From: Patescibacteria group bacterium
Lineage (GTDB): Bacteria; Patescibacteriota; Microgenomatia; UBA12405
NCBI GenBank assembly: GCA_018902845.1
Contig: JAHIPV010000004.1
Span: 1-62,375 of the forward strand
Length of the DNA stretch: 62,375 nucleotides
Direction: 5' to 3'
The translations under genes and the position numbers were made by a program. Of the stretch, positions 2,373 through 62,375 are shown piece by piece. Below the pieces are notes generated by a model. It made no database searches. It was not told the origin of the DNA and was given only the letters and a program-made list of their open reading frames with translations. Position 1 is the stretch's first letter; the number at the start of each line of letters is the position of its first letter.

Positions 2373-2396
2373 CTATTTTTTCATTCCTTCCTTCTT

Positions 2397-7018: not shown

Positions 7019-7075
7019 TACTTTCCCACCGTTCATTTTTACTAATCCACTTTCACTTTCCCACACACCAACCAT

Positions 7076-8750: not shown

Positions 8751-8772
8751 TCATCTAGTCATCCAGTTATCC
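8738..8772 (+). repeat. tandem octamer repeat TCTAGT(A/C)A overlapping the stop of 7356..8750
   Basis: TCTAGTAATCTAGTCATCTAGTCATCCAGTTATCC. Confidence 0.75.
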
Positions 8773-8814
8773 ATTTTATAATTTATAATACTTATAACTC
8801 CTTATAACCAATTT

Positions 8815-9939: not shown

Positions 9940-9962
9940 AAATTTATTTATTAAAAAACAAA

Positions 9963-10469: not shown

Positions 10470-10525
10470 TTCCTAATTTTAAGTTTCTAATTAAATCTAT
10501 TTTTTTTATTTTACTTTTCCCTTTC

Positions 10526-10641
10526 GTCATTCTGATCCCGATCAATCGGAGGACGAAGCAATCCAGTCGGGATCAATCTTGCCTTTTACATATCCAACGA
10601 GATTGCCACGTCTTCGCCAACTGGTGAATCCTCGCAATGAC
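10526..10641. repeat. family A variant (10526-10580) followed by a family B copy (10584-10641)
   Basis: GTCATTCTGATCCCGATCAATCGGAGGACGAAGCAATC..., then TTTTACATATCCAACGAGATTGCCACG...CTCGCAATGAC. Confidence 0.8.
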
Positions 10642-10737
10642 AAAGTTTTTAATTTTTTAACCGTAATGCAACTATCATCCCCACAATCCCGCTCAAAATT
10701 AAAATTAATTTATTTCTTTTCCAAAATTCCTTCATTT

Positions 10738-24140: not shown

Positions 24141-24161
24141 CCAAGCGTTATATACTTACCC

Positions 24162-28037: not shown

Positions 28038-28245
28038 GATATTCTCCGCTCCCGCTCAGAATGACGCTCGCCTCCTGTCATCCTGAGTGTACCCCCGTCA
28101 TCCTGAGTGAGTCTTACGACCGAAGGATCCCATTGTCAAACACCCCTCCTTTGGGATTCTTCGCTCTCGCTCAGAATGACGCCTTTCTTCCCGTCATCGA
28201 CCCTACCACCCGTCATCCTGAGTAAGTCTTACGACCGAAGGATCT
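28038..28245. repeat. cluster of about six family A copies in both orientations
   Basis: Reverse copies at 28038-28065 and 28151-28180. Forward copies at 28077-28090 (partial), 28097-28130 and 28212-28245. Confidence 0.85.
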
Positions 28246-28313
28246 CGTTTTTGTTTTATTCATAAATCATAAATCCTGTTTTAGTTTTACTTTTTCCTGT
28301 TATTATTAAATAA

Positions 28314-34864: not shown

Positions 34865-34908
34865 GTCATCCTGATCACCCGCAGGGGGAGAAGGATCCAG
34901 CGAAGCGT
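34865..34908 (+). repeat. family A repeat
   Basis: GTCATCCTGATCACCCGCAGGGGGAGAAGGATCCAGCGAAGCG. Confidence 0.85.
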
Positions 34909-34969
34909 TTTTGTTTAGAAATTAAGAATTAAAAATTAGAAATTAATTAAGCAACAGGAGGTGAGTTAA

Positions 34970-36662: not shown

Positions 36663-36997
36663 GTTCATATCTAGCATCGTTAAGTACACCCTCTATTCTC
36701 CATACCACAGGCTTATATAAAACATCACTAGGTACTTTCCCCGTTCTTGTCAAAATCGGATAAAAAACTTTATCATCAATAGTTTGAACAACTCTCGCAA
36801 TTTTGCGATTGATCCTATTCATTCAATTAATATTCTATACACCACACAATACTTTGTCAATAACATATCTTATAAGTCAATCTAATCTTCCCATTTTTTC
36901 TCTTAATCTTCTCCAAAAACACCCCTCCGTTATTCTCAATTACCTTTTCTTCATTCTCATTTTTTAATTCTTATTAGTCTTTTTTGTTGTTTCTATT

Positions 36998-37030
36998 TGT
37001 CCAGTAATCTAGTAATCTAATTATCTAATT
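36998..37030 (+). repeat. octamer repeat array
   Basis: TGTCCAGTAATCTAGTAATCTAATTATCTAATT, just 3' of the alkylation-repair gene stop. Confidence 0.7.
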
Positions 37031-37031
37031 T

Positions 37032-37748
37032 TTATCTCTTCATTGCTTTTCTTTTCCATTCTTCCGGCATTTTTTCTATTGCGTATCTTAATGCAGTTCT
37101 TGGCATTTTGTCTTTTCTTTTCATTACAAAATCCATTACTTTTTTTGCATATACATTACTGGCTTCTTTAAGCATCCATCCATATCCTTTTTGCACCAGA
37201 TCATCAGAATCCGTTAGCAAGATATCGGCTATCTCAAAAACTTCATCCAAATATTTTTTCTCTCTACGAACCGGATAAATTAAGCTTACGCTTGCCGCTC
37301 TTCTAAACCATCTATTTTTACTTTTGGCCCACATTTTTAATCTAGGCAAAAACTGGGGAAATCTAGCCAAAAAATATCCAACCGTATGAGTACAAAAATC
37401 ATCACAAGCTCCCCAGTTGGACACATATTTTTTAATCCATTTTTCCCATCTTTCAAAATCTTTTTTCTCAAACCTATCTTTAATTCTAAACACCCACTCA
37501 AACACTATGGTTCTGTATTCGCCAATCTGCAATTCCATCAATTCTTCACTAATTTCAAAAATTTCACTTTTACTCCAATTTTTCATCACTCCAAAATACT
37601 TCTTGGCCACTTTCCGCCTGTTGGGCACTCTTACGCCCATCATCACTACCTTTTCTATAAAAAAATTCTTCGCTCCTTTTTTATATTCCACATCTGCCAA
37701 CCATTCCAGTTCTTTTTTAATACTTTCCAATAATCGTTTCTTATTCAT
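37032..37748 (-). CDS. DNA alkylation repair protein (AlkD-like HEAT-repeat family)
   Basis: 238 aa with ...WVSNWGACDDFCTH... and ...KGYGWMLKE..., characteristic of the DNA_alkylation family. Confidence 0.75.
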   Translation of the reverse strand: MNKKRLLESIKKELEWLADVEYKKGAKNFFIEKVVMMGVRVPNRRKVAKKYFGVMKNWSKSEIFEISEELMELQIGEYRTIVFEWVFRIKDRFEKKDFERWEKWIKKYVSNWGACDDFCTHTVGYFLARFPQFLPRLKMWAKSKNRWFRRAASVSLIYPVRREKKYLDEVFEIADILLTDSDDLVQKGYGWMLKEASNVYAKKVMDFVMKRKDKMPRTALRYAIEKMPEEWKRKAMKR

Positions 37749-43841: not shown

Positions 43842-43886
43842 GTCATCCTGAGTCCGATTCATCGGACGAAGGATCTAGCGTTAGCG
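43842..43886 (+). repeat. family A repeat with inner hairpin GTCCGA-TTCA-TCGGAC
   Basis: GTCATCCTGAGTCCGATTCATCGGACGAAGGATCTAGCGTTAGCG. Confidence 0.85.
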
Positions 43887-43928
43887 TTTTTTCAACAATC
43901 TTTTCAATCATAATTCCCATTTTATCAT

Positions 43929-51757: not shown

Positions 51758-52402
51758 ATGAAAAAGCCAATTGCGGTACTTTTTGACATGGATGGATTGA
51801 TGGTTGACAGTGAATTGACCAGAGCAGAATCATTTAAGAACGTAATACGAAATCATGGTGTTGTGGTCAAAGAAAAAATACCTCACGTTATTGGAGTAAG
51901 AGTCTTGGACAATTGGGTCATTATGAAAGATAAATATGGTTTAAAAGAAGATCCAGCAAAATTAATGGAAGAAGGGGAAGAAGAATACACTAAGCTAATC
52001 GAGAAAAAAATGCCGATTACCATGCCAGGGCTATTTCAATTAATTGATTATATTAAAAAAGTAAACATCAAAAGAGCGGTAGTTTCATCAGCTGGAATAA
52101 GGCATATTAAGATAAAATTAGAAAAATTAAAATTAACTGATTTTTTTGAAACAATGGTTTCCGGAGATATGCTTACCAAGGGAAAGCCTGATCCAGAAGG
52201 ATATTTGTTAGCAGCAAAAAAACTTGGAGTAGATGCAACAGATTGTCTAGTTCTCGAGGATGCTCCTTCTGGTGTTCAAGCTGCCAAAGCGGCCGGAATG
52301 TTATGTGTTGCGATTCCGAGTACTTATACTAAAAACGGTGATTTTTCTCAGGCGGATTTGATATTAAAAGATCTTAGAGAAGTAATTGCAATATTGAAAT
52401 AA
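51758..52402 (+). CDS. HAD-family hydrolase (beta-phosphoglucomutase-like)
   Basis: LFDMDGLMVDSE, SSAG, KGKPDPEGY, and EDAPSGVQAAKAAGM. Confidence 0.85.
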   Translation: MKKPIAVLFDMDGLMVDSELTRAESFKNVIRNHGVVVKEKIPHVIGVRVLDNWVIMKDKYGLKEDPAKLMEEGEEEYTKLIEKKMPITMPGLFQLIDYIKKVNIKRAVVSSAGIRHIKIKLEKLKLTDFFETMVSGDMLTKGKPDPEGYLLAAKKLGVDATDCLVLEDAPSGVQAAKAAGMLCVAIPSTYTKNGDFSQADLILKDLREVIAILK

Positions 52403-52468
52403 GCATTACATAACCAAGCAAGATTTCATTTTTTTTTACGACAAATTCTAAAAACAAAAATTAAGTTC

Positions 52469-52497
52469 TTGACATCTGTATGACATTGTATTACCAT
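52469..52497 (+). promoter_or_regulatory. candidate promoter/operator of the brnT-remnant/brnA pair
   Basis: TTGACA (52469-52474), 17 nt, then TACCAT. The region contains the direct repeat TGACATCTGTA/TGACATTGTA. Confidence 0.35.
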
Positions 52498-52502
52498 ATA
52501 TT

Positions 52503-52603
52503 ATGGAGTTGAAAGAGCTGGTTTGGGACGATTTTAATATTATATTGTTACTGCTAGAGACTCTAGTAGTAAAGAAAGGAAATTAATAAATGACCAAAAA
52601 TAA
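52503..52603 (+). pseudogene. brnT: decayed brnT (internal deletion plus frameshift)
   Basis: The ATG frame gives MELKELVWDDFN (compare EFQWDKGN of intact BrnT). A second frame gives IVTARDSSSKERKL (compare RVISARDLNKRR) and ends 14 nt inside brnA, mimicking the intact pair's overlap. Confidence 0.45.
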
Positions 52604-52880
52604 AACAAAAACCATTCCAAATTTCAAAAATCGACAGCAAGAAGCCAAGTTTTGGGACACCCACGATTTTACTGATTTTTTGGATCAAACAAAAAAAGTA
52701 AATTTAAAAGTCAATTTAAAAGCACCGAAAGATGGTGTTTTAACTATTAGACTTCAACCCCAACTAAAAAAACACATGAGTCAACTAGCTACAGAAATGG
52801 GTACCCAAACTTCCACCTTAGCCCGTATGTGGCTTATTGAAAAACTAAAGACATTAACTCCTCCGTATCAGTCAACATAA
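52590..52880 (+). CDS. brnA: BrnA-family antitoxin
   Basis: IPNFKNRQQEAKFWDTHDFTDF... parallels 18818..19087. C-terminal RHH-like STLARMWLIEKL. Confidence 0.7.
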   Translation: MTKNKTKTIPNFKNRQQEAKFWDTHDFTDFLDQTKKVNLKVNLKAPKDGVLTIRLQPQLKKHMSQLATEMGTQTSTLARMWLIEKLKTLTPPYQST

Positions 52881-53047
52881 TTATTTTATCCGAATTCATC
52901 GCTCTGTCCCACCTAGCGGACTTTGTCCGCGCACCGCCGACATAGCCTTTGGCGACGCACGGCCGGAGCCAAGCTTTAGCGAGGCCAAGGCGGTGTTTTT
53001 TGATTGATGTTCGAACATTTTTTGACGAAAACCCCCAATAAGGAAGC

Positions 53048-53195
53048 CAGCCCTGCCGTCGCTCGGAAACCTCGCCACCCCGCAAAAAAGTTTTCTTCAC
53101 AATTTTTGATTTGCGCGCGCCGATTTTTTTCTTCTAAAAGGAAAAGAAAACTTTTGTGCGGGGTTCTGCTCTTAACGAGCAGGACGGCGGGGCTG
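53048..53195. other. 148-nt imperfect long hairpin (left flank of the R-M/RT cassette)
   Basis: CAGCCCTGCCGTCGCTCG (53048-53065) pairs with CGAGCAGGACGGCGGGGCTG (53176-53195). ACCCCGCAAAAAAGTTTTC (53077-53095) pairs with GAAAACTTTTGTGCGGGGT (53146-53164). 50-nt apical loop. Confidence 0.65.
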
Positions 53196-53215
53196 TCCAC
53201 AATTTGATTTCGCTC

Positions 53216-53258
53216 GGGCGTGGCGGAATTCCCCCCAAACCCCCCTTCCGCCACGCCC
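53216..53258. other. perfect 13-bp stem hairpin with C-rich loop
   Basis: GGGCGTGGCGGAA (53216-53228) and TTCCGCCACGCCC (53246-53258). Loop TTCCCCCCAAACCCCCC. Confidence 0.75.
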
Positions 53259-53329
53259 TCGCGGGGACGATTCTTTTTTTCGGCGGAATTTGAGGCTGTG
53301 CCAATTTCATTGGCGCGCCACCTTTTGTC

Positions 53330-54067
53330 TTATTTTATCAGATTCCAATTATCAAGGAAATAGTCCATTTCGTGATCCATATTTCCGAGATATACCTTAT
53401 CATTTCTAAACTTTATATTCACACGATAGCGTTTTCCGTGTCCGACTTCCAAAATTGCTTTTTCGTGTACTTTCTTTTCAACTTCGTGAAATGGCAAAAT
53501 CAAAAAATTACTTTTCTTTTCGCCGTGCAAAACAAAAATATAATAAATATTGCCGTTGCTGTGGCGTTCAAATGATACTTTACGAATATCAAAAACATAA
53601 GTGTCAAAACTATTAAGATTTGAAGTTTTGACCTGAATACCAAACAATTGATTATCTTTGACCGCCACAATGTCCATTCCAACATCTACGCTCATTATGC
53701 TGGCATTGAAACCACGAAAAAGCAATTCGCTACATACCAAATGCTCGCCACCTTTTCCAGTAAATCCTCCAGCGATAACAATTTTTTCTTCCTCCTCTTT
53801 TTCCGCTTCAATAATCTTTGGCGTTTCTTTGATTTCTTTTTTGTTTGGATTGAGCGCAAAAGTTCCGGGCGCGGTTTTGATAAAATCCGAGCCTTCAACT
53901 TTGTTTTTAATATCTACCGTGATTTGTGCGTTCATTGACGCTTCCGGCGTCGCGCCCTCTGTTTCCAAGATGCCAGATTCCAAAGCCAGCCGAGTGATTT
54001 CGGTATAGTGCAAAGGCGTTTTTGCCTTTTTTAATATCTCAATCGCAGATTGCTTGAATGTATTCAT
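53330..54067 (-). CDS. HARE-HTH/Mrr_N-like winged-helix + PD-(D/E)xK nuclease-fold protein
   Basis: N-terminus SAIEILKKAKTPLHYTEITRLALESG...APGTFALN. C-terminus GGEHLVCSELLFRG...VDVGMDIVAV...GIQVKTS (E...D...QxK pattern). 5 nt downstream of the RT gene. Confidence 0.6.
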   Translation of the reverse strand: MNTFKQSAIEILKKAKTPLHYTEITRLALESGILETEGATPEASMNAQITVDIKNKVEGSDFIKTAPGTFALNPNKKEIKETPKIIEAEKEEEEKIVIAGGFTGKGGEHLVCSELLFRGFNASIMSVDVGMDIVAVKDNQLFGIQVKTSNLNSFDTYVFDIRKVSFERHSNGNIYYIFVLHGEKKSNFLILPFHEVEKKVHEKAILEVGHGKRYRVNIKFRNDKVYLGNMDHEMDYFLDNWNLIK

Positions 54068-54072
54068 AAATT

Positions 54073-55575
54073 TTAGCTTTCATAACTAAACACTTGTATT
54101 TCCCTTCTCTCAATTTTAGGCTTAATTTTATCTATAACTGCCCGATTAACAAAAACGCCGTTGCTCAATATATCTTTTACTGTTTTTTCGCTTATCCAGT
54201 CGTTTGTAAATATCTTTTGTTTGTAATCTCCATAAGCATATTTGCAAAGAGTCTCGTCAAAATCTAATTTTAATTTCAATCCAAGCGCGATTCTTTGGAT
54301 CCATATTTCCAACAAACCAGCATTCGAAAGTGTCCCTATTTTTTCTTGGACTCTTACTAATAAATCAAGTTGTGATTGCTTTGACAATTTTGGAATATAG
54401 TCAGACATCAAACCAGCAATGAAAGGAAAACAATTCGGGTTATTGTAACCTATATCAATCAGAATTCCAGTTATTGTTTTTTCTTGGTATTTATAATGTT
54501 CTGATTTAACCACATCTATAATTTTTGATAATCTATTTTTTAGAATTCCTGAGTTAGGAAATTTTTTACCGATTTGTTGAATTATCAATAATTGTCGCAG
54601 CAACTCAGTTTTTGATAGTTTTTTAGGAACCAATCCATACTTTAACGAATCAACTTTATCGTCTTTTATTGAGCCACCAATAATATCTTGATTGAAGCAG
54701 GTTTTGTTTGTATTTAAACGAAAACCTAAATCAAGTAACACCTCGCTAAGACTTTTTAGAATAATATCTCCATCGCTAATGTCGTTAACAAAAATTCGAT
54801 AATCGTCTCGGTATCTTAATATAAAGTATTTTTTACTTTCAATAATTTTATTCAATTTTTTCGATAATTCACAATCCGCATATCCTAGAACAATTTCCGC
54901 AATAAAATCCATTAAACTACTTCCTTCTGGTATACCGTTGGTTTGACCATTATTCATTGCCTGAAGATGACAATCAATCTTATTGCCAAACAACTCATTA
55001 TAACCCCTCTTTTCCTTTCCAATTTTTTTTGTATGTATAGCCCATGGCAAAGAGTGGGTATAAATTGATCCATAGCAACTACTGATATCTGTGTGATATA
55101 TAAACTTATAATCTAGTGCCAACGAAATTGATTTTTTTTCTACATTATTTACCCATTGAGTAATCTGCGCCGCTTTTTGCTTTCTCTTTCCCGACGGTAT
55201 TACAGGCATACTTTCACATCTAATATTTTTAGATTTTTGAAATTCCTTAAAACAATTTTGTAAAAACTTCCAGTTATCTTTTTCAGTTATAATGTTGACC
55301 AGCGAAACATACAACAACGGATTTATAATTTGATACTTTCTCCATGCATATTTACCATCCTTATTGCCGTATAAAATGTGATTTATCGTTTCTTTTTCTT
55401 TTGCTTTATTTAAGTCTGATAAATCTAGTACTTTTTTCTTAAATGCCTTATCGGTAGCAGATAAAACATTTTTAAAAACAAAATAATCGGGTAACTCAAT
55501 ATTTGAAAAAACCTCTTGTGTTAAAAAGAATTTTTTGGCATCTGTGTGATTTAGATTAAGAATATTTTTTGCCAT
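54073..55575 (-). CDS. reverse transcriptase (UG/Abi-like: N-terminal RT domain + about 170-aa helical C-terminal domain)
   Basis: Motif A YHTDISSCYGSI (D163 = 55087-55089), motif B NGIPEGSSLMDFIAEIVL, motif C ILRYRDDYRIF (YRDD = 54802-54813), motif E-like LGFRLNTNKT. Confidence 0.8.
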   Translation of the reverse strand: MAKNILNLNHTDAKKFFLTQEVFSNIELPDYFVFKNVLSATDKAFKKKVLDLSDLNKAKEKETINHILYGNKDGKYAWRKYQIINPLLYVSLVNIITEKDNWKFLQNCFKEFQKSKNIRCESMPVIPSGKRKQKAAQITQWVNNVEKKSISLALDYKFIYHTDISSCYGSIYTHSLPWAIHTKKIGKEKRGYNELFGNKIDCHLQAMNNGQTNGIPEGSSLMDFIAEIVLGYADCELSKKLNKIIESKKYFILRYRDDYRIFVNDISDGDIILKSLSEVLLDLGFRLNTNKTCFNQDIIGGSIKDDKVDSLKYGLVPKKLSKTELLRQLLIIQQIGKKFPNSGILKNRLSKIIDVVKSEHYKYQEKTITGILIDIGYNNPNCFPFIAGLMSDYIPKLSKQSQLDLLVRVQEKIGTLSNAGLLEIWIQRIALGLKLKLDFDETLCKYAYGDYKQKIFTNDWISEKTVKDILSNGVFVNRAVIDKIKPKIERREIQVFSYES

Positions 55576-55577
55576 AT

Positions 55578-56753
55578 TTACAATTCACCGTTAAAAGCCC
55601 TTGCCAAAACAGAAGGCATTAAGGCGGTTGTTATCAAAAATTGTTTTGATCTTTCTTTTTTAATTTCTTCTTTTTTATTTTCAATTAAATTTAAATGATC
55701 AATAACTTTTTGTTGCTCAGCAATTGAATCTGGGAAAGAAAATACTAATTTCTTTATTTTGTCTTGATTAAGAATGGGCAATGTAGTTGCGGGGCATAAA
55801 CCTCTTATTGTTGAATAGTTTGCCTTGAACCAGTAATAAGCAAATTCTGGTAATATATTTTCTTTAAATCTAATTCCTGTAATTTGTTGATTTGAAGTCG
55901 CCTCGTTTTTCAAAATCCCTACTTTTCCAAGAGTTGCGCCTATTCCGATAAATAAAACGGTCCCGGCTTTATAAATTTTTACCTTTCCATCATCAATCGC
56001 GAGTTTAGAAATTTTGCGATATGAATTTTCGAGATACATCTGCCCCTTAAAATCAGAAGGGGTGAACCAATTTAGCTCTTCTTTGAAATATTTTTGTTCG
56101 CCTGATGGTGGGGTTGTTCCTGTCTTAATCTCATCAATCAGATCACCTATTTTTTCTTTTTTCCAACCCGTATCGCTAAAAATTTTACTTAAGGCAGATG
56201 GCACAATAGCATTAACCGCTTTTTCAATATAATTTTCTGCATTGATAATTGATTTAGTGCGTTCCTCAATCTCCTTAATCTTTTTTACAATCCGCTTTTG
56301 TTCAAGAAGTGTTGGAAGCAAAATTTCTTTGTTTAAGAATAGTTCTTCTTGCAAATATCTTCTGTTTGTTGCACCTTGACTGGAAGCAATACAAAATTCT
56401 AAGAATTTAGCAGAGTGAGAAAAGTAAAAGAAAAAATCGGGACTAATTTTTGTTAGATCCAATTCGTAAGCCCAAAAATTACCCGTAATAATTCCACCGT
56501 CAGCTTCTTCGGGGATTATGCCGAAAGCACCGTTCCTAGCGTCGATTTTTGATAGCAATAACCAACCTGCTATAACAGTAAATTGATTTTTTGTTCCTAT
56601 TCTCGATCCAACAACTTCATCTCTCACGCAAATGCCTTTATTGTGCATTTTTATAGTAATGCGCTTGTATGTTTTTTTGTCATCAAGAACAATTGTCTCT
56701 TTTTTTCTGAGAAGAAAATCACTAATTTTATATTGCTTCCAATCGCTTTTCAT
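55578..56753 (-). CDS. hsdS: type I restriction-modification specificity subunit
   Basis: 391 aa with two TRD halves separated and ended by conserved helical spacers (LPTLLEQKRIVKKIKEIE, IAEQQKVIDHLNLIE). 2 nt after hsdM. Confidence 0.85.
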   Translation of the reverse strand: MKSDWKQYKISDFLLRKKETIVLDDKKTYKRITIKMHNKGICVRDEVVGSRIGTKNQFTVIAGWLLLSKIDARNGAFGIIPEEADGGIITGNFWAYELDLTKISPDFFFYFSHSAKFLEFCIASSQGATNRRYLQEELFLNKEILLPTLLEQKRIVKKIKEIEERTKSIINAENYIEKAVNAIVPSALSKIFSDTGWKKEKIGDLIDEIKTGTTPPSGEQKYFKEELNWFTPSDFKGQMYLENSYRKISKLAIDDGKVKIYKAGTVLFIGIGATLGKVGILKNEATSNQQITGIRFKENILPEFAYYWFKANYSTIRGLCPATTLPILNQDKIKKLVFSFPDSIAEQQKVIDHLNLIENKKEEIKKERSKQFLITTALMPSVLARAFNGEL

Positions 56754-56755
56754 AG

Positions 56756-58189
56756 CTATTTAATTAAATCCTTTATCTCCGAAAGTAACGATATTATTGT
56801 TTTTTCTGACTCTTCAATTTTAGCAATTAATTCCTCTGGTGGAAGATGCTCAAACTCCGCTTTTTTGTTCGGATTTTTTACATCAAGATTGTAGTTACTT
56901 TTGATAATTTCCTCTACCGGCACAATCCACGATTGTTCGGTTAATTCTTTCTTTTCCCATAATTTTTTGGCTTCTTCAAAATATACGCTCTTGATTGGCT
57001 TTGATTTTGAAAAGTTTTTTAAACCTTCTGGCAACGGCATTTCATAGTAAAAAATTTCTTTTGTTGGTCCTGTTTTTTCAAAAAATAAAATATTTGTCGG
57101 AATGTTCGTATAAGGTGCGAAAGAACCGTTCGGCAAACGGACGATGTGGTGCAAATTAAATTGCTGAAGCAATTCCTTTTTTGTATTTACATAACTTTGA
57201 TCATCAGTTTTGAATAACACGCCTTCGGGGAAGATAATCGCGCACTTTCCGCCGTCTTTAAGTGAGCGCAAACAATGTTGCAAAAATAAAATCTCGGTTT
57301 GAGCAGAAGGATAAGGAAAATTTGACTCAATACCTCGCACAGTTCCGGAAAATGGCGGATTTGTGAGAATGATGTCATATTTTTCGGTGAGGTTGAAAAG
57401 ATTGATTGAAAGCGTGTTCATTTTACGGATATTTGGTGTAGCGATTCCGTTAAGCATCATATTCATCGTTCCCAAAATAAACGGCAATGATTTTAATTCT
57501 TTTCCATAAAAAGATTCTTTTTGCAAAAATTCTTTATCTTTGGTATTTTTTTCTTGCGGACGCATAAAATGATACGCCTCAGTCAAGAAGCCGGACGGCC
57601 CATTGCAAGGGTCATAAATAGTTTGTCCGATTTTTGGAGATATCATTTCCGTCATAAAACGAGCAATAACGCGCGGAGTGTGAAATTCAGCAAGTGGTTT
57701 AATATCTGACGATTTCATGCGAGCAAAAAGACCTTCGTAAATACTGGAAACTGCGAAAGAATCTTCATCGCCAAAAAAGTCCACACTAGCCAACACATCC
57801 ACAACTTCACGGAGTAAATAGCCGTCTTCCATTCTGTTTTGAGTATTGTTGAAAATTTCTGAAATAATTTCTTTTGTGCGATTGCCGGAAAGAGTGCGAA
57901 AATATGGAAAAAGTTTTATTTGCACAAATTCTAAAAGATCTGGTCCTGTAATATAAGAATCCTTGCCAGTCCACACACTCCAGCGATATTCATTATCAAT
58001 ATTACGGTTGTAGGTTTTGCCTTCAAATGTCGCCTTGGCTTCATATTCGTTTTCTATTTCTTCATATACTTTCAAAAACAAAAGCCACGAAAACTGCTCA
58101 ACATACTGCAAAGCGCCCGTTGTTCCGGGGTCTTGGCGCATTTTATTGCATGCGCTCCATAATTTATTTGAAATTGAATCGTTTGCCAT
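56756..58189 (-). CDS. hsdM: type I restriction-modification DNA methyltransferase subunit (N6-adenine)
   Basis: HsdM_N-type N-terminus (LWSACNKMR), motif I DPCNGPSGFL, and catalytic TNPPFSG. Confidence 0.9.
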   Translation of the reverse strand: MANDSISNKLWSACNKMRQDPGTTGALQYVEQFSWLLFLKVYEEIENEYEAKATFEGKTYNRNIDNEYRWSVWTGKDSYITGPDLLEFVQIKLFPYFRTLSGNRTKEIISEIFNNTQNRMEDGYLLREVVDVLASVDFFGDEDSFAVSSIYEGLFARMKSSDIKPLAEFHTPRVIARFMTEMISPKIGQTIYDPCNGPSGFLTEAYHFMRPQEKNTKDKEFLQKESFYGKELKSLPFILGTMNMMLNGIATPNIRKMNTLSINLFNLTEKYDIILTNPPFSGTVRGIESNFPYPSAQTEILFLQHCLRSLKDGGKCAIIFPEGVLFKTDDQSYVNTKKELLQQFNLHHIVRLPNGSFAPYTNIPTNILFFEKTGPTKEIFYYEMPLPEGLKNFSKSKPIKSVYFEEAKKLWEKKELTEQSWIVPVEEIIKSNYNLDVKNPNKKAEFEHLPPEELIAKIEESEKTIISLLSEIKDLIK

Positions 58190-58202
58190 AGTTTATTTTT
58201 CG

Positions 58203-60695
58203 TTAATTTGCATAAATTTTTTCCTGCAAGCGATCAACATTTTGCCGAAGTGCTTGCGGATTGCCGAAGGCTTTTTGCGAATACATAAAGCCGGGCATTG
58301 GATATACATCAAAAACATTGGCTTTTGTAATTTCCGTTACTCCGTTTTCCTGATATTTCAAAAGCAATCCGCTGACAATTTTTTGCTGTTCCTTATTAAG
58401 ACTTTTCAAAAATTCTTGTTCACGATTTAAGACGGCATCAGTTCTTTCTTTTCGTGAGTGCAGATTTTCGCCAAATCCAAGATTCGCCAAAAGATCGTAT
58501 TCATCGGCTTCGGTATTATTGGTGATTTTGGCAAGCATACGGATATGGATACCTTGATTTTCCAATTCAGTAATAAGCTCGTCTCTGGATTCTTGCTTGA
58601 TCCATTGCGTTTTCAATTCATCAGTATTTTTAACAACTTTTCCAATTTCCTCCTTGGAATAAGCAACATATTCTTTAAGCGTTAGCCTTTTGCCTAAAAT
58701 ATCAACTTCAAACATCATTTCATCCTCAATAAAAACAGTAAGACCATGAACTTTTATCGGCGGAACAGGTTTTTTCTGGGCAACTAGCTCAATTTGAATT
58801 TGCTCCTTGTCGCTTATTTGCGTTTCAATGGTAATTTCTCTGTGCTTGAAGCCGTTTGCCGCCACATAGAGTTTTATTTTCCCTTCCGGAATATTGGAAA
58901 AGCTAAATTCACCGCTTGCGTTTGTTCTTGTTTGCGTTTGCTCATTTGGCGATAATTGAATTGTCATCAAGGCATTTTCAACAGGTGCGAGCGAATCTTC
59001 TTCAACAACAATTCCATTAAGAAAATTGATTTTTGGCGTGTCTGGTTTGATTTCGGGCTTGCCCTCAATCCATTCGTCAATCAATCTTGTGGCATTAGTA
59101 TAATCAATTACCCGATACCAAAATTTGCCTTTTTCTTTTGAAATACGACTACCTCGCCCCATAATCTGTTTGAAAACTATTGGCGAGCGTATCGGCTTCA
59201 TAAAAACAATATTTTGAACTGTGGGCGCGTCAAAACCAGTGGAAAGTAAATCAACAGTAGTGGCAACAACTGGAACATTTTGCGCTTGATCTTGAAAAGT
59301 TTTTAGAAGCGCCAATGAGTCAGTTTCTTCTGAGACAATCCGGATTGCATAATTTGGAAAGCCAAGGTAAGCAAAATGATTTTGTAAATGTTTTGCGACT
59401 TCGCCGGCATGCTCCATGGTTACGCAAAAAACAATTGTTTTTTGCATTTCGCCATAAGTTTTAATGAGTCCGGCAAGATGTTCGCACATTTTCTCGGTTC
59501 TATCTGGCAAAATGATACCTTTTTCAAACTGTTCCATTTTGTAAAAATCATTCGGTTCAGCTTCGTCCGGTATTTCGACTCTCGCTCCTTTTTTAACGGC
59601 ATCTTCAATATTTACTCCATCTTTATCAATATTGAGTTTTACTTTGTGAAGCAAAAAGTTAGCAAGAAACCCATCGTCAATTCCTTGTGCCATGCTGTAA
59701 TCGTAAACGGCCTGATTTTCCTTCTTTGGATCACCGAAATATTTGTAGGTGTTTATATTTTCATCTTGTTTCGGCGTTGCGGTCATTCCAAGCTGAATTG
59801 CTGTTGAAAAATGCTTTAGGATTTCGTTCCAAGTACTAAATCCGCTTCTGTGACACTCATCAATCACAATTAAATCAAAAAAATCTTTGGGATACTGCTC
59901 AAAAATTCTTTTTCCGTCTTTTTCGCTCCACATTGCCTGATAAATACTAAAATAAATGTCGCGAGCCGTTGGAGCTTGCCCCTCTTCAATATATCCACGC
60001 GCATTTCCAAATGGTTCAAAAGTATTAAAGGCCTGATCTCGTAAAACATTTCTATCTGCAAGGAATAAAACACGGCGGATTTTCTTTGCCTGTTTTAATT
60101 TCCAAGCGATTTGAAAAGCTATGTTTGTTTTGCCCGTGCCTGTAGCTAGGTTTAATAAAATCCGCTTTTGACCTTTGGAAATTGCTTCAATTGCACGACG
60201 AATAGCGACTTGCTGATAATAGCGAGGGTTGGTATTGAAAGTTTGTTTATTATAAGCGGTAGCGAGTGGCAAAACTTCTGTTTCGGATAATTCTTTCGCT
60301 TTCAAATATCTTCGATAAAGTTCATCTTGCGTTGGAAAAGTTTCAATTGTTTTTTGTGTGTTGTTTGTAAAATCAAATTCTTCAATTTCGTGTCCATTGG
60401 TAGAATACGCAAAAAGTATATCTAGCCGTTCGGCGTATTCTTTGACTTGTTGCATACCGGAAACGGCGGGCTTTCCTTCTTCCTTTGCTTCAACGACTGC
60501 AAGAGGTAGAGCTTCATTGAAATATAAAATGTAATCGGCTTTTTTTGGTTCTTTTCGTTTTGATTCATCGCCAACGAGAAAAATCTTTCCGTCAGTAAAA
60601 TAATATTCACGAGTAATAAAATCTTCAGTCCAGCCGGACTGTTTTATTTTTGGATCAATTATTTTTGCTCTTGTGTCTGCTTCGTTATATGCCAT
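58203..60695 (-). CDS. hsdR: type I restriction enzyme R subunit (EcoEI-like C-terminus) with an inserted carboxypeptidase-regulatory-like beta-sandwich
   Basis: N-terminal NEADTRAKIIDPKI nuclease region, helicase motifs LATGTGKT / VIDECHR / MTATP / QIMGRGSR. Insert NALMTIQL...TNASGEFSFSNIPEGKIKLYVAANGF (about 58815-59020). Confidence 0.9.
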   Translation of the reverse strand: MAYNEADTRAKIIDPKIKQSGWTEDFITREYYFTDGKIFLVGDESKRKEPKKADYILYFNEALPLAVVEAKEEGKPAVSGMQQVKEYAERLDILFAYSTNGHEIEEFDFTNNTQKTIETFPTQDELYRRYLKAKELSETEVLPLATAYNKQTFNTNPRYYQQVAIRRAIEAISKGQKRILLNLATGTGKTNIAFQIAWKLKQAKKIRRVLFLADRNVLRDQAFNTFEPFGNARGYIEEGQAPTARDIYFSIYQAMWSEKDGKRIFEQYPKDFFDLIVIDECHRSGFSTWNEILKHFSTAIQLGMTATPKQDENINTYKYFGDPKKENQAVYDYSMAQGIDDGFLANFLLHKVKLNIDKDGVNIEDAVKKGARVEIPDEAEPNDFYKMEQFEKGIILPDRTEKMCEHLAGLIKTYGEMQKTIVFCVTMEHAGEVAKHLQNHFAYLGFPNYAIRIVSEETDSLALLKTFQDQAQNVPVVATTVDLLSTGFDAPTVQNIVFMKPIRSPIVFKQIMGRGSRISKEKGKFWYRVIDYTNATRLIDEWIEGKPEIKPDTPKINFLNGIVVEEDSLAPVENALMTIQLSPNEQTQTRTNASGEFSFSNIPEGKIKLYVAANGFKHREITIETQISDKEQIQIELVAQKKPVPPIKVHGLTVFIEDEMMFEVDILGKRLTLKEYVAYSKEEIGKVVKNTDELKTQWIKQESRDELITELENQGIHIRMLAKITNNTEADEYDLLANLGFGENLHSRKERTDAVLNREQEFLKSLNKEQQKIVSGLLLKYQENGVTEITKANVFDVYPMPGFMYSQKAFGNPQALRQNVDRLQEKIYAN

Positions 60696-60699
60696 ATTT

Positions 60700-60900
60700 T
60701 TATTTAAACAATTCTGCCGTCTCCACGCCGAGGGCTTTGGCTAGTTTTTCCAATGTGTCCACCGTAGGATTCGGACTTTCGCCTGTTTCTATCTTAACAA
60801 CGGTATTTAACGCCAAATCAGCGTCTTTTGAGAGGCGATCTTGTGAGATTCCTTTTTTGATTCGCAATTTGCGGATATTTTCGCTAACTGTATTTGCCAT
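60700..60900 (-). CDS. XRE-family helix-turn-helix regulator (controller-protein-like position)
   Basis: 66 aa with IRKLRIKKGISQDRLSKDADLALNTVVKIE (HTH_3). Stop lies 4 nt before the hsdR start. Confidence 0.8.
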   Translation of the reverse strand: MANTVSENIRKLRIKKGISQDRLSKDADLALNTVVKIETGESPNPTVDTLEKLAKALGVETAELFK

Positions 60901-60922
60901 ATTGGTTTGACTTTGATAAACT

Positions 60923-60952
60923 ATTATAATACACTACTTATATTGAGTGTAT
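60923..60952 (-). promoter_or_regulatory. candidate -10 box plus 7-bp-arm palindromic operator upstream of the XRE gene
   Basis: Minus-strand TATAAT (60923-60928). ATACACT (60929-60935) - 10 nt - AGTGTAT (60946-60952). Confidence 0.4.
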
Positions 60953-61134
60953 ATCAACTTGCTTAATACAATGGTATCAAAAATATTAAAATTTGGCAAA
61001 CAAAAAGGGAGTTCATTCGACACAACGCGCGCACGGGTGGGTGGGGCAAGCGTTATTCCTCTTTTATCTTCTCTTTTGTTTTCTGTCCCGCCGTCCGTCC
61101 GCCGAAAAGTTTTGGGGGCGAAGCCAAAGCAGGC

Positions 61135-61175
61135 GGGCAAAAAGGAAGGGGGTTGGGGGGAAGGAATTTTTGCCC
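61135..61175. other. 9-bp stem hairpin with G-rich loop (mirror of 53216..53258)
   Basis: GGGCAAAAA (61135-61143) and TTTTTGCCC (61167-61175). Loop GGAAGGGGGTTGGGGGGAAGGAA. Confidence 0.7.
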
Positions 61176-61194
61176 TTTTGCGATTCAGAATAGA

Positions 61195-61349
61195 GCGTTT
61201 CCGCTTTTCTCTGATTAAGAGAAAACCAAAACAGAAAATTTTTCATCTCCTATTAAAAGAAAAAAATGGGGTGCAGAAAAAAATAAAAAATGTAATGAAA
61301 AAATTTCTGTTTTGGTTTGCCGTAGAGGAGCGGAGGCAAGCGGAAACGC
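61195..61349. other. 155-nt imperfect long hairpin (right flank of the R-M/RT cassette)
   Basis: GCGTTTCCGCTT (61195-61206) pairs with AAGCGGAAACGC (61338-61349). AAACCAAAACAGAAAATTTTTCAT (61223-61246) pairs with ATGAAAAAATTTCTGTTTTGGTTT (61295-61318) at 23/24 positions. 48-nt A-rich apical loop. Confidence 0.7.
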
Positions 61350-61684
61350 ACATCATTATTCTGGATTCTGTTCAAAAAAAGTTAGAATTTCAACCAAAAG
61401 GTACCGCCATGAAAAAATCAGAGTATGACCTCTGGTTTTTTCATTTATGATGATATTAGTTGTGATGGAAGAAGGTGGGAATATGGTATGATGCAAATAT
61501 ATGACAAATGGAGAAGTTACAATGAACGAACTCATGGATTTTTTGGTGGAAAATGTGGCTACCAACAGAGATGCATCAGATGGAACATCGGATATTGGAT
61601 ACCATTTCTACATTTAATGGCGTAGAATTATAATTTTATTCACAGACCACCTCACGTATATTTTCTTACCCTGACGATACCGCA

Positions 61685-61722
61685 GACCCCCGGCGGAGCC
61701 TGGCCTGGCTCCGCCGGGGGTC
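61685..61722. terminator. perfect 16-bp GC-rich stem-loop in the GC-rich terminal segment
   Basis: GACCCCCGGCGGAGCC / GGCTCCGCCGGGGGTC with a 6-nt loop. No clear U-tract. Two further GC hairpins at about 61779-61808 and 61836-61872, downstream of the minus-strand ORF. Confidence 0.35.
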
Positions 61723-61906
61723 TTCTCGAGAAGATCCCTCACTTTGTTCGGGATGGGAAAAGAAATAAAATGCGAACGCCCCCGGTGTACTCGGTACACA
61801 CGGGGGCGTAAGGTTAGGGGGAAGGAACTTGGTGTGGCAGGTACTGCGGGTTTGGACCGCAGACCTGCCACGAGATGAGGTAGTTTGCCCCTGACGCGCC
61901 AGCGGG

Positions 61907-62375
61907 TTAGAACCGCTGGGTGCCGAATCCGATGAGGGTGTAACCCCCCATCGGGATATCGTTCCCGGCCGGGTGCTTGCGCACCGCAGCCAACACGTCG
62001 CTCGCCTGCACCACGGCACCGTTGGCCGTGCAGCGGCCGATGCCGTCCTGCGTGGCCCCGCGGAGCTCCACGACCTGGTACACACCATCGATCCCCGAGG
62101 GGATGGTGGTGTGCACGAGGGTGCCGGTGTTGATCACCGACCCCTCGTTCCAGGCGTCGGCGCACATCACGGCGCCGTTGAGGACGCCTCCGTCCATGAC
62201 GACGGTGGCCACGGGTGCGGGCGGGGTGCGGGTGCTCCACCAGGCGGTCAGACCGCCGATGGCGCCGGCGCACACCAGGCCCAGGAGGGCCAGGAGCAGG
62301 GCGAGGGCGATCAGGCCGGCGCAGCCCATCCAGCGCCGGTTGTTGCGGGGGGGCGGGGGGGGCTGGTCCACGACG
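61907..62375 (-). CDS. partial membrane-anchored hypothetical protein from a high-GC source (5' end may run off the window)
   Basis: Frame with the sensible composition: TM helix GCAGLIALALLLALLGLVCAG, then a Gly/Val/Thr-rich domain. The competing overlapping frames are Arg-rich high-GC artefacts. Confidence 0.45.
   Translation of the reverse strand, partial: VVDQPPPPPRNNRRWMGCAGLIALALLLALLGLVCAGAIGGLTAWWSTRTPPAPVATVVMDGGVLNGAVMCADAWNEGSVINTGTLVHTTIPSGIDGVYQVVELRGATQDGIGRCTANGAVVQASDVLAAVRKHPAGNDIPMGGYTLIGFGTQRF

What the first reader, a model, noticed from the sequence alone, without database searches (positions are those of the whole stretch)
52881..53329. GC-rich, non-coding, highly structured 450-nt block immediately 3' of the RT/nuclease operon (possible ncRNA or cassette end)
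In a genome where sampled lines are about 27-35% GC, this block is conspicuously GC-rich. Its only ORFs are mutually overlapping, low-complexity ones on both strands.

It contains:
- A family-D-like repeat (about 52925-52998).
- A 148-nt imperfect hairpin (53048-53195, arms listed in features, 50-nt apical loop containing GCGCGCGC).
- A perfect 13-bp stem with loop TTCCCCCCAAACCCCCC (53216-53258).
- A GGCGCGCC palindrome just before the nuclease stop.

Several defence RTs (retrons, DRT2, DRT3, DRT9) need a structured ncRNA encoded next to the RT, and GC-rich islands in AT-rich genomes are a classic ncRNA signal. The alternative is a pile-up of the genome's REP-like repeats marking an insertion hotspot.
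Basis: partly seen in the sequence, partly recalled or inferred. Interest (0 to 1): 0.7.

Follow-up and report, generated by a model that had tools for sequence, protein, structure and literature searches.

The report
End repeat of a mobile defence island
The GC-rich hairpin block is not an RNA partner of the reverse transcriptase. It is one of two inverted, structured end-repeats of a mobile element, driven by a serine recombinase and inserted in a tRNA-Ser gene, that carries swappable anti-phage gene sets in tiny CPR bacteria.

Summary
The hairpins, the palindrome and the GC excess (0.53 against 0.36) are all real. The block has two parts:
- 52881-52988 is host intergenic DNA, because it is also present in a strain with an empty site.
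- 52989-53323 is a 335-nt unit that recurs at 93-98% identity in more than 25 MAG loci, mostly Patescibacteria, next to unrelated cargo.

A diverged inverted copy lies at 61098-61409, so the two copies bracket the whole XRE-hsdR-hsdM-hsdS-RT-nuclease operon.

Evidence from strain variants and related loci:
- One strain variant lacks the element and has an intact tRNA-Ser exactly at the block's outer edge.
- Another variant has the same block but a different cargo, a type II restriction-modification system.
- A sister assembly has a large serine recombinase just outside the right-hand copy. In other genomes that gene runs into a tRNA-Ser.
- The block's first ~28 nt fit a serine-integrase attP half-site.
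- Its hairpins are kept by compensatory changes, with no strand bias.

The RT is Abi-P2, a template-independent enzyme, and RT homologues at 85% and 77% identity have no such block nearby.

Verdict: this is the terminal module of an integrative defence-cargo element. It is a new variant of a known kind and of moderate interest. What the hairpins do remains unresolved.

The parts
52881..52988 (.). Host intergenic REP-like hairpin downstream of the CopG-antitoxin gene. It is the chromosomal flank (B-side) of the insertion and is not part of the mobile unit.
   Evidence: Identical in the empty-site strain L076/L077 up to window 52993. Similar G+C-rich hairpins ending in ...AAGGCGG abut the block in other genomes.
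52989..52993 (+). GGCGG: the displaced 3' end of tRNA-Ser (complement of CCGCC of ...CCGCCA). It is the sequence shared by the empty site and the element, and the inferred crossover core.
   Evidence: The empty site reads GCCAAGGCGG|AGAGTATAGGATTCGAACC, which is tRNA-Ser(cga) at L076 3683-3768 on the minus strand. The window reads GCCAAGGCGG|TGTTTTTTGATTG.
52994..53047 (+). Module M1, the outer end of the conserved unit. TGTTTTTTGATTGATGTTCGAAC is the inferred element-side (P') half-site of the serine-recombinase attachment site.
   Evidence: The outer boundary is sharp in about 40 copies. TGTTCGAAC lies at half-site positions 16-24. The tRNA T-arm GATTCGAAC lies at 11-19 in the empty site. 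This is the 5-bp shift described for serine-integrase attP versus attB (PMC3783163). M1-only ends exist in L024, L037, L012 and L046.
53048..53195 (+). Long three-way hairpin: an outer stem, a 21-bp inner stem 53077-53097/53144-53164 with an apical GCGCGCGC region, and a side hairpin with a CTCTTAA loop at 53166-53185.
   Evidence: The stems are kept through compensatory changes in 18 variants. The module is absent from the short forms L046 and L012.
53211..53263 (+). Hairpin P4, with a covarying stem and a conserved C-rich loop TTCCCCCCAAACCCCCC (53229-53245).
   Evidence: I2. 9 of its 10 stem pairs show changes on both sides, and the loop is invariant.
53264..53299 (+). Tail: T7 followed by CGGCGGAATTTGAGGCTGT. 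53299/53300 is a recurrent breakpoint where copies with different cargo diverge.
   Evidence: The window and L071 are 100% identical up to 53299 and then carry different cargo. More than 20 alignments end at 53299/53300.
53300..53323 (+). Cassette-proximal small hairpin (GCCAATTTCATTGGC) plus GCGCCACC, which contains the GGCGCGCC palindrome. This is the 'tail' adaptor next to the 3' end of the cargo.
   Evidence: Other copies carry alternative small hairpins (ATTTTGCAAAGCAAAAT, GCCAGTTGAAAACTGGC, GCCAACGAAGTTGGC), each followed by GCGCCACC. After that the sequences become unrelated.
53330..60900 (-). Cargo operon:
- XRE/C-protein 60700-60900
- hsdR 58203-60695
- hsdM 56756-58189
- hsdS 55578-56753
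- Abi-P2 RT 54073-55575
- HARE-HTH + PD-(D/E)XK 53330-54067
   Evidence: Pfam and PADLOC matches.
60901..61097 (-). Cassette 'head': promoter-like region and conserved leader (…GGAATAACGCTTGCCCCACCCACCC…GAACTCCC) upstream of the XRE gene.
   Evidence: Homologous head plus XRE segments occur in L026, L012 and L066. Promoter-like hexamers lie at 60926-60999.
61098..61409 (-). Block B, the inverted and diverged copy of the unit, with the same order of modules and hairpins. 61098-61175 is shared with the sister assembly. 61176-61409 is unique to this window.
   Evidence: 61% identity to block A. The sister contig L070 is identical only up to 61175.
61176..62375 (.). Right end of the window. It departs from the sister assembly, which carries the rest of a B-type block and then the large serine recombinase. 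The last ~700 nt here are 79% GC. A join made inside the repeat is likely.
   Evidence: No Pfam match for the G+C-rich ORFs.

Best explanation
The 335-nt unit at 52989-53323 is the left terminal module of a mobile element of roughly 9-10 kb, integrated into the 3' end of a tRNA-Ser gene by a large serine recombinase (LSR).

**Order of parts**
1. Host flank and GGCGG.
2. Block A (+).
3. Cargo, here a type I restriction-modification system with Abi-P2 RT and a nuclease.
4. Block B (-).
5. CCGCCA, followed by a short inverted copy of the LSR 3' end.
6. The LSR gene.
7. GGCGG and the tRNA-Ser body.

**Shown**
- A strain with an empty site has the intact tRNA exactly at the block's outer edge.
- The same site and the same block carry a different cargo in another strain.
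- The LSR lies next to block B in a sister assembly, and it overlaps tRNA-Ser in other genomes.
- The two blocks are always inverted around the cargo.
- The hairpins are conserved by compensatory change.
- The block is independent of the RT.

**Inferred**
- The first ~28 nt (GGCGG + TGTTTTTTGATTGATGTTCGAAC) are the element-side arm of the LSR attachment site, so block A's edge is attL.
- The remaining ~300 nt of G+C-rich hairpins, duplicated in inverted orientation, act as shared arms between which cargo modules are replaced and flipped. The recombination could be homologous or site-specific within the arms.
- The arms act at the DNA level rather than as a one-strand RNA.

The specific role of the hairpins is not established.
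For: **Empty site versus occupied site**
- L076/L077 match the window to 52993, then continue with tRNA-Ser(cga).

**Cargo swap at the same site**
- L071 is 100% identical to the window to 53299, then carries XRE + N6_N4 MTase + a 299-aa ORF on the other strand.

**Link to the recombinase**
- L070 is 99.99% identical to 61175, then has a B-type block and an LSR with Resolvase + Recombinase + Zn_ribbon_recom domains.
- An LSR lies on the outer side of a block in 11 of 62 loci.
- Its 3' end overlaps tRNA-Ser in L041, L016, L019, L023, L081, L082 and L083.
- Junction sequences are X-TGGCGG-tRNA, F-GGCGG-block, and an internal inverted X-TGGCGG-block.
- The TTCGAAC motif is offset by 5 bp between the block and the tRNA, as in attP versus attB of serine integrases.

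**Distribution and geometry**
- The pattern search gave 62 loci. Many have a + copy on the left and a - copy on the right, or sit at contig ends.
- No -/+ pair or direct pair flanks a single cargo.
- Related cargo occurs in both orientations relative to the LSR (L055 versus L021).

**Cargo content**
- Type I, II and III restriction-modification systems, Shedu, a Mokosh-like helicase, PDC-S39, PDC-M36A and Abi-P2.

**Structure**
- 41 consensus pairs, 24 of them with changes on both sides.
- 92.5% of cells are paired, against 82.6% in shuffles and about 50% when partners are slid.
- G-T and A-C mismatches are 27 versus 25, so neither strand is favoured.
- Partner arms are 96-100% identical within an element but 72-79% identical between lineages.
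Against: - The right junction (attR) and the LSR are not present in this window. Its right end differs from the sister assembly from 61176 onward. The metagenome scan for the predicted attR found only unrelated tRNA arrays.
- No excised circle or recombination product was observed, and LSR activity on these sites is inferred from geometry only.
- An attachment site needs about 50 bp. That does not explain why ~300 nt of hairpins are conserved. Short forms lacking the long hairpin exist, so part of the block may be a passenger.
- The internal inverted copy of the whole attP region is unexplained.
- The near-identity across MAGs labelled as different phyla could partly reflect mis-binning or mislabelled records.
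- The 18 variants fall into few lineages, so the covariation counts are not independent events.
Confidence: 0.78

Rival explanations
1. The block encodes a structured non-coding RNA that the neighbouring RT needs as a template, primer or scaffold, as in retrons, DRT2, DRT3 and DRT9.
For: - It lies directly 3' of the RT-nuclease genes.
- It is G+C-rich in an A+T-rich genome.
- It folds strongly (z = -6.8 and -4.0).
- Its helices covary.
Against: - The RT is Abi-P2, a protein-primed, template-independent class (PMC9508834).
- RT homologues at 85% and 77% identity have no such sequence nearby.
- The block flanks cargo without an RT in dozens of loci.
- It is present unchanged in L071, where the RT operon is replaced by a type II restriction-modification system.
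- There is no strand bias in wobble pairs.
- No Rfam match.
Confidence: 0.03
2. The block is an independent miniature repeat (REP/BIME or MITE-like foldback element) that happened to insert on both sides of the operon, at a hotspot for repeats.
For: - It is non-coding, palindromic and multi-copy across genomes.
- Contigs break inside it (L073, L075).
- The long hairpin module is optional, and a solo fragment exists in L061.
- The adjacent 52881-52988 really is a host REP-like hairpin.
Against: - The geometry around cargo is always +...-.
- No target-site duplication and no terminal inverted repeat of a single block were found.
- The 10-nt direct repeat TTATTTTATC at 52881 and 53330 lies outside the conserved unit, and its left copy is present in the empty site.
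- The window holds only two copies in 62 kb.
- The outer edge coincides with a tRNA-Ser 3' end, and an LSR is linked to it.
Confidence: 0.07
3. The two inverted blocks are the sites of a programmed DNA inversion switch. The adjacent serine recombinase flips the cargo segment, or its own gene, for phase variation, as in Hin/Gin/Pin systems or hsdS shufflons.
For: - Inverted repeats flank the segment, with a serine recombinase beside it.
- Homologous cargo is found in both orientations relative to the LSR (L055 versus L021).
- The arms are homogenised within elements.
- The LSR gene is itself flanked by ~140-200-nt inverted repeats.
Against: - The cargo promoter and 'head' lie inside the segment, so a flip would not obviously switch expression.
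- The enzyme has the domain set of an integrase-type large serine recombinase and overlaps a tRNA target.
- The strongest population variation seen is presence versus absence and cargo replacement, not inversion.
Confidence: 0.1
4. The hairpins are a cis-acting signal of the mobile element. Candidates are a transcription insulator between cargo and host or recombinase genes, or an origin or uptake signal used after excision.
For: - Structure is conserved beyond the ~50 bp an attachment site needs.
- The symmetric placement means that anything entering the cargo from outside meets the same strand of the block on both sides.
- The C-rich loop is conserved.
Against: - No canonical intrinsic terminator was found in the block.
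- No replication or transfer gene is present in the element.
- Short forms lack the long hairpin.
- There is no direct test.
Confidence: 0.2

Closest known systems
Integrative elements and islands driven by a large serine recombinase that target the 3' end of a conserved gene (serine-integrase prophages, SCCmec-type cassette chromosomes with Ccr recombinases)
   Same: - An LSR with Resolvase + Recombinase + Zn-ribbon domains sits at one end.
- Insertion is at the 3' end of a conserved gene, which is restored.
- Cargo is variable and includes restriction-modification systems.
- Tandem accretion occurs (L081).
- The att half-site geometry shows the 5-bp motif shift (PMC3783163).
   Different: - The cargo is bracketed by ~335-nt structured inverted repeats.
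- A complete inverted copy of the attP region, including ~200 nt of the LSR 3' end, lies inside the element.
- No directionality factor, replication gene or packaging gene was seen.
- The hosts are Patescibacteria.
Tycheposons (tRNA-targeting cargo carriers of Prochlorococcus; bioRxiv 10.1101/2020.12.28.424599)
   Same: - Small integrative elements in streamlined genomes.
- They integrate at tRNA genes, including tRNA-Ser.
- An integrase sits at one end and the cargo is modular and exchangeable.
- A minority use a large serine recombinase.
   Different: - Most tycheposons use tyrosine recombinases and often carry a replication module.
- The passages I read with a term search describe no long structured inverted repeats around the cargo. 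I did not read the whole paper.
- Cargo here is mostly anti-phage.
Integron attC sites
   Same: These are imperfect palindromes at cassette boundaries whose structure is better conserved than their sequence. They mark exchangeable, promoter-less or promoter-bearing gene cassettes.
   Different: - attC sites are 57-141 nt, lie in direct orientation, are recombined as a folded single strand by a tyrosine integrase (IntI), and show strand-specific features.
- The blocks here are 335 nt, inverted, show no strand bias, and are associated with a serine recombinase.
ncRNAs of retrons and DRT2/DRT3/DRT9
   Same: A structured, non-coding stretch next to a defence RT gene.
   Different: - The block is not conserved next to RT homologues.
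- It occurs with non-RT cargo.
- The RT class here needs no template.
Yeast 2-micron plasmid architecture and engineered cassette exchange between inverted att sites (resemblance only, from my own knowledge)
   Same: Two long inverted repeats, each holding a recombinase site, divide the excised element into two arcs: cargo and recombinase. The arms are homogenised and both orientations of an arc are found.
   Different: - FLP is a tyrosine recombinase acting on identical sites.
- Neither replication of the element nor attP x attP activity of this LSR is shown.

Membership tests
RT-associated ncRNA (retron msr-msd, DRT2/3/9 ncRNA) | Conserved next to homologues of the RT | tested here: not met
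   RT homologues at 85% (L001/L002) and 77% (L003) identity have no block-like sequence within the fetched flanks.
RT-associated ncRNA (retron msr-msd, DRT2/3/9 ncRNA) | The RT belongs to a class that uses an RNA template | tested here: not met
   The PADLOC best match is AbiP2 over its full length, E 9.6e-169. Abi-P2 is protein-primed and template-independent (PMC9508834).
RT-associated ncRNA (retron msr-msd, DRT2/3/9 ncRNA) | A discrete transcript, or cDNA derived from it | not testable with these tools
   No expression data are available.
Rfam RNA families | Covariance-model match at or near the gathering score | tested here: not met
   No gathering-level hit in the window. Only chance-level miRNA-like hits were found at E up to 10.
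Serine-integrase attachment site (attL, made of a host arm and an element arm) | The occupied and empty sites differ exactly at a short shared core inside the target gene | tested here: met
   The window and L076 are identical through GGCGG (52989-52993), which is the tRNA-Ser 3' end. After it they diverge.
Serine-integrase attachment site (attL, made of a host arm and an element arm) | A distal (zinc-ribbon) motif lies 5 bp farther from the centre in attP-type arms than in attB-type arms | tested here: met
   TGTTCGAAC lies at positions 16-24 in the block arm. GATTCGAAC lies at 11-19 in the tRNA arm. The rule is taken from PMC3783163. This match is by inspection and is not a binding assay.
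Serine-integrase attachment site (attL, made of a host arm and an element arm) | A cognate large serine recombinase is encoded in the element, and attR lies at its other end | tested here: inconclusive
   Both are present in the sister assembly L070 and in L041, L016, L019, L023, L081, L082 and L083. Both are absent from this window, whose right end departs at 61176.
Serine-integrase attachment site (attL, made of a host arm and an element arm) | Recombination by the enzyme | not testable with these tools
   This needs in vitro or in vivo assays.
MITE / foldback transposon | Terminal inverted repeats of the single unit, and a target-site duplication | tested here: not met
   The outer flanks of about 40 copies show no duplication. 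The unit's ends (GGCGGTG... and ...GCGCCACC) are not a convincing inverted repeat.
REP/BIME | Short (20-40 nt) palindromes scattered in many intergenic regions of one genome | tested here: not met
   The unit is 335 nt, and only two copies occur in 62 kb, both at the island edges. Only 52881-52988 is REP-like.
Integron attC | Direct orientation in arrays next to a tyrosine integrase (IntI), with single-strand-specific structure | tested here: not met
   The copies are inverted and no IntI was found. G-T versus A-C mismatches are 27 versus 25.
Intrinsic terminator | A G+C-rich stem-loop immediately followed by a T-run | tested here: not met
   0 terminator-like sites in 52500-53600, against 1.7 expected in shuffles.

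The most novel reading that the evidence does not exclude
These elements may be a natural cassette-exchange platform. A large serine recombinase would work with two inverted ~0.5-kb arms, each holding a full attP-type site and a set of conserved hairpins. The arms would be active recombination substrates (cruciform or folded DNA) that let Patescibacteria swap and flip whole defence systems at tRNA-Ser genes. That would be a serine-recombinase counterpart of the integron attC system.
Probability: 0.15. Interest if true: 0.8.

Novelty: new variant of a known kind. Interest (0 to 1): 0.55.

Why it matters
- It removes a false lead. This Abi-P2 RT has no neighbouring ncRNA partner.
- It identifies a widespread, very uniform family of small mobile elements in Patescibacteria, a group with tiny genomes and few described mobile elements.
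- These elements deliver and exchange complete anti-phage systems (type I, II and III restriction-modification, Shedu, Abi-P2 and others) at tRNA-Ser genes. Different cargo sits at the same site within what looks like one population.
- The long structured inverted arms and the internal inverted attP copy are unusual for serine-recombinase elements. If they are functional they could reveal a new way of organising cassette exchange.
- They would also offer compact natural parts (recombinase plus sites) for genetics in organisms that are otherwise hard to manipulate.
- The repeat is a practical warning for assemblies. Contigs break or mis-join inside it.

Tried and rejected
- **Rfam.** At gathering and at permissive thresholds over both blocks there were only chance-level hits.
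- **Flanks of RT homologues.** There is no block in L001-L003, and L004 is too short.
- **The 10-nt direct repeat TTATTTTATC (52881 / 53330) as a target-site duplication.** Rejected. It lies outside the conserved unit, and the left copy is present in the empty site.
- **Viral contigs.** The pattern hit one contig, and the LSR had one relative at 58% identity. The element is not typically viral.
- **Metagenome scan for the predicted attR of this lineage (AAACTTGGCGG + tRNA-Ser 3' part).** The 8 hits were all unrelated large tRNA arrays that share the tRNA-Ser 3' end. No LSR and no block were present.
- **Terminator and promoter scan.** No canonical terminator lies inside block A.
- **Strand of the structure.** Wobble counts gave no bias, so I could not assign a functional strand.
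- **L065 and L058.** There the 3' end of an LSR-like ORF abuts the block. These ORFs are truncated or fragmentary and did not clarify the role of the internal attP copy. In L032 the sequence next to the block resembles the L065 junction, but no LSR was detected there.
- **Literature.** Searches found no description of this element.
Full report
**1. What is in the sequence**

The stretch 52881-53329 lies between two convergent stop codons. One belongs to a CopG-type antitoxin ORF (52590-52880, +). The other belongs to a HARE-HTH + PD-(D/E)XK ORF (53330-54067, -).

That ORF is the last gene of a minus-strand operon:
- XRE/C-protein 60700-60900
- hsdR 58203-60695
- hsdM 56756-58189
- hsdS 55578-56753
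- RT 54073-55575
- nuclease 53330-54067

- The stretch is 0.53 GC, against 0.36 for the window.
- Only short overlapping ORFs cover it.
- The long hairpin has arms at 53077-53097 / 53144-53164.
- The second hairpin spans 53211-53263 and has the loop TTCCCCCCAAACCCCCC.
- The GGCGCGCC palindrome sits at 53312-53319.
- Both strands fold better than shuffles, with z = -6.8 and -4.0.

**2. A second copy**

A blastn search of the block against the window gave three collinear reverse-strand matches at about 61144-61411.
- Alignment and an HMM place an inverted, diverged copy (block B) at 61098-61409. It is about 61% identical to block A.
- Block B lies just upstream of the XRE gene, so the two copies bracket the whole operon.
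- It keeps the same hairpins with different sequences. One example is ACCCCGCAAAAAAGTTTTCTT/AAGAAAACTTTTGTGCGGGGT in A against ACCAAAACAGAAATTTTTTCAT/ATGAAAAATTTTCTGTTTTGGT in B.
- It has the same C-rich loop.

**3. Not tied to the RT**

- The RT matches the PADLOC AbiP2 model over its full length (E 9.6e-169).
- Abi-P2 polymerases make DNA by protein priming without a template (PMC9508834).
- The closest RT homologues on usable contigs sit elsewhere. The 85% homologue is next to a MutH-like/Dcm system. The 77% homologue is in yet another context. Neither has a block-like sequence or a GC island.
- Rfam has nothing.

**4. The block is a widespread unit**

I searched one genome per species with a pattern made of the P4 loop and the downstream motif TTTTCGGCGGA. 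It hit 62 stretches.
- Most hits are Patescibacteria: Saccharibacteria, Moranii-, Magasanikii-, Peregrini-, Nomura- and Wolfebacteria among others.
- Some records are labelled Gammaproteobacteria, Bdellovibrionales, Bacteroidia, Caldisericales or Nitrospirota. I did not verify those labels.

Alignments to the window start sharply at 52989/52990. They end at 53322-53326 or at 53299, with 93-98% identity in more than 25 loci. So the conserved unit is 52989-53323. The 'family-D' hairpin at 52881-52988 is not part of it.

Many loci carry two copies, + on the left and - on the right (L023, L026, L030, L031, L039, L040, L044, L055, L063, L081). Others carry one copy at a contig end. I saw no opposite or direct arrangement around a single cargo.

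The cargo between the copies varies, and most of it is anti-phage:
- Type I, II and III restriction-modification systems, Shedu SduA, a Mokosh-like helicase, PDC-S39, PDC-M36A, T5orf172 and an AAA ATPase.
- A few cargoes are not defence genes: an ABC transporter, an antiporter/MFS/GreA set, and Ddl.

Cargo genes run from a 'head' adaptor to a 'tail' adaptor. The head is a small hairpin, GCGCCACC, and a leader with promoter-like sequence. The tail is another small hairpin and GCGCCACC. In the window, block A carries the tail and block B carries the head.

**5. Strain variants of this very neighbourhood**

I looked up contigs that encode the identical CopG and HAD proteins and compared them with the window. 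Four comparisons matter.

- **Empty site.** L076/L077 (GCA_018817965.1 and JGI 3300014656) match the window to 52993. They then continue with a tRNA-Ser(cga) gene on the minus strand (L076 3683-3768) and have no block at all. The junction reads GCCAAGGCGG|AGAGTATAGGATTCGAACC in the empty site and GCCAAGGCGG|TGTTTTTTGATTGATGTTCGAAC in the window. The element therefore sits in the last bases (CCGCC of ...CCGCCA) of tRNA-Ser.
- **Different cargo.** L071 (ERZ27247113) is 100% identical to the window to 53299. It then has the head-type adaptor followed by XRE, an N6_N4 methyltransferase and a 299-aa ORF on the + strand. This is the same site and the same arm with a different cargo in the opposite direction.
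- **Recombinase.** L070 (GCA_018895715.1) is 99.99% identical to 61175. It then carries the rest of a B-type block, followed by a large serine recombinase with Resolvase, Recombinase and Zn_ribbon_recom domains.
- **The window's right end.** The window departs from L070 at 61176. Its last ~700 nt are 79% GC and have no recognisable genes. A join inside the repeat is likely. Other assemblies of this site simply end inside the block (L073, L075).

**6. The recombinase and its sites**

- An LSR of this family, 92-97% identical between MAGs, lies on the outer side of a block in 11 of the 62 loci.
- Its database family is large. One 90% cluster has 444 members, and ORF lengths run from 501 to 580 aa.
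- The 3' end of the gene overlaps a convergent tRNA-Ser in L041, L016, L019, L023, L081, L082 and L083. The anticodons differ between loci.

The junctions read as follows:

| Junction | Sequence |
|---|---|
| LSR 3' end (X) to tRNA | ...GTAAAACT-TGGCGG-tRNA |
| Host flank (F) to block | F-GGCGG-TGTTTTTT... |
| Between block B and the LSR promoter | ...AAAAAACA-CCGCCA-AGTTTTAC... |

The third junction is the reverse complement of X-TGGCGG-block. It includes an inverted copy of the LSR C-terminal coding part, about aa 437-501.

I place the centre at the GG of GGCGG. With that choice, TGTTCGAAC occupies half-site positions 16-24 in the block arm. GATTCGAAC (the tRNA T-arm) occupies 11-19 in the tRNA arm. 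A 5-bp inward shift of the distal motif in attB relative to attP is the rule described for serine integrases (PMC3783163).

From this I infer:
- X-GG-block is attP.
- The tRNA-Ser 3' end is attB.
- The outer edge of block A is attL.

M1-only ends and short forms lacking the long hairpin exist, which is consistent with M1 being the essential part. L081, a 1.06-Mb contig, shows two such elements in tandem at two tRNA-Ser genes.

**7. The hairpins**

I aligned 18 variants (A3).
- The consensus structure has 41 pairs, and 24 of them have changes on both sides.
- 92.5% of cells are paired, against 82.6% in column shuffles and 46-55% when partners are slid. None of 500 shuffles reach the observed covariation.
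- Nine of the ten P4 stem pairs covary, while the P4 loop is invariant.
- G-T and A-C mismatches are equal (27 versus 25). Neither strand is favoured, which argues for a DNA-level palindrome rather than a one-strand RNA.
- The two arms of one element are 96-100% identical in L055, L023, L081 and L044, while lineages differ by 21-28%. The arms are therefore homogenised within an element.
- The window's own arms are heterogeneous, at 61-73% identity. That fits arm exchange between elements, or for 61176-61409 an assembly join.
- Homologous hsdS-containing cargo occurs in both orientations relative to the LSR (L055 versus L021).
- No canonical terminator lies in the block.

**8. Interpretation**

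The block is the left terminal module of an LSR-driven, tRNA-Ser-integrated carrier of defence cargo.

- **Shown by comparison:** presence versus absence at the tRNA, cargo replacement between the same arms, linkage to the LSR, fixed inverted geometry, conserved hairpins, and independence from the RT.
- **Inferred:** the LSR uses GG + M1 as the element arm of its site, and the inverted arms serve as shared flanks for replacing and flipping cargo.
- **Not explained:** why ~300 nt of hairpins are kept, and why a complete inverted copy of the attP region sits inside the element.

I weighed three other readings and describe them under the rival explanations:
- an inversion switch;
- a cis signal, such as an insulator, an origin or an uptake signal;
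- a miniature repeat.

**9. Comparison with known systems**

The closest known systems are serine-recombinase integrative islands (SCC-type cassette chromosomes, serine-integrase prophages) and tycheposons. Tycheposons are tRNA-targeting cargo carriers of streamlined genomes, a minority of which use an LSR.

The long structured inverted arms and the internal inverted attP are features I did not find described. Integron attC sites are a conceptual parallel only. I file this as a new variant of a known kind.

**10. Limits**

- The LSR and attR are not in this window.
- The metagenome scan for the predicted attR failed.
- No excised form or activity has been observed.
- MAG labels and binning may exaggerate the cross-phylum spread.
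- The variants used for covariation fall into few lineages.

Noticed in passing
window 61176-62375: The window departs from the otherwise identical sister contig (JAHIMY010000023.1, L070) inside block B. It ends in ~700 nt of 79% GC with ORFs that have no Pfam match. A chimeric join at the repeat is likely. In the sister contig a serine recombinase occupies this position.
   Followed up: partly
window 53330-60900; L001/L002; L004: The Abi-P2 RT sits inside a type I restriction-modification operon, between hsdS and a HARE-HTH/PD-(D/E)XK gene. A 90% homologue has the same hsdS-RT arrangement. An 85% homologue sits after a MutH-like + Dcm pair. The RT seems to travel as an add-on to different restriction systems.
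   Followed up: partly
window 52402-52590: The CopG/BrnA-type antitoxin gene has no intact toxin gene upstream. There is only a ~28-codon ORF (MELKELVWDDFN...), possibly a remnant of a BrnT-like toxin. The empty-site strain has a second CopG antitoxin gene beyond the tRNAs (L076 4049-4318).
   Followed up: no
window 5558-5641, 8719-8794, 36486-36527, 36973-37056: Arrays of an 8-nt unit (TCTAGTAATC-like, period 8) recur at four places. They could be iteron-like or binding-site arrays.
   Followed up: no
window 258-318, 2430-2463, 24129-24162, 28094-28249, 34889-34922, 43867-43900; also 143-226, 10552-10610, 26538-26579: These are two dispersed repeat families: GTCATCCTGAG...CGAAGGATC... and ...CATTGCGAGCGAAGCGTGGCAATCC.... 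They are the true REP-like repeats of this genome and are unrelated to the block.
   Followed up: no
window 12522-12830: A local GC peak (up to 0.68) inside what looks like a coding region rich in Ala, Gly and Pro codons on the minus strand. It is not a block copy.
   Followed up: no
L081 (GCA_040772285.1, 1.06-Mb contig) 775-11596: Two recombinase elements lie in tandem at neighbouring tRNA-Ser genes. One carries a DpnII-type restriction-modification system and lacks a left arm. The other carries an antiporter/MFS/GreA set with both arms.
   Followed up: partly
L084-L091: Large tRNA gene arrays (up to 31 tRNAs in 7 kb) in metagenome contigs share the exact 3' part of tRNA-Ser used in my pattern. 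They are unrelated to the element.
   Followed up: no
L006, L033, L040, L056, L065: The same antiporter/MFS/GreA cassette, with near-identical arms, appears in records labelled Saccharibacteria, Peribacteria, Bacteroidia and Gammaproteobacteria. This means either very recent transfer or wrong labels or binning.
   Followed up: no
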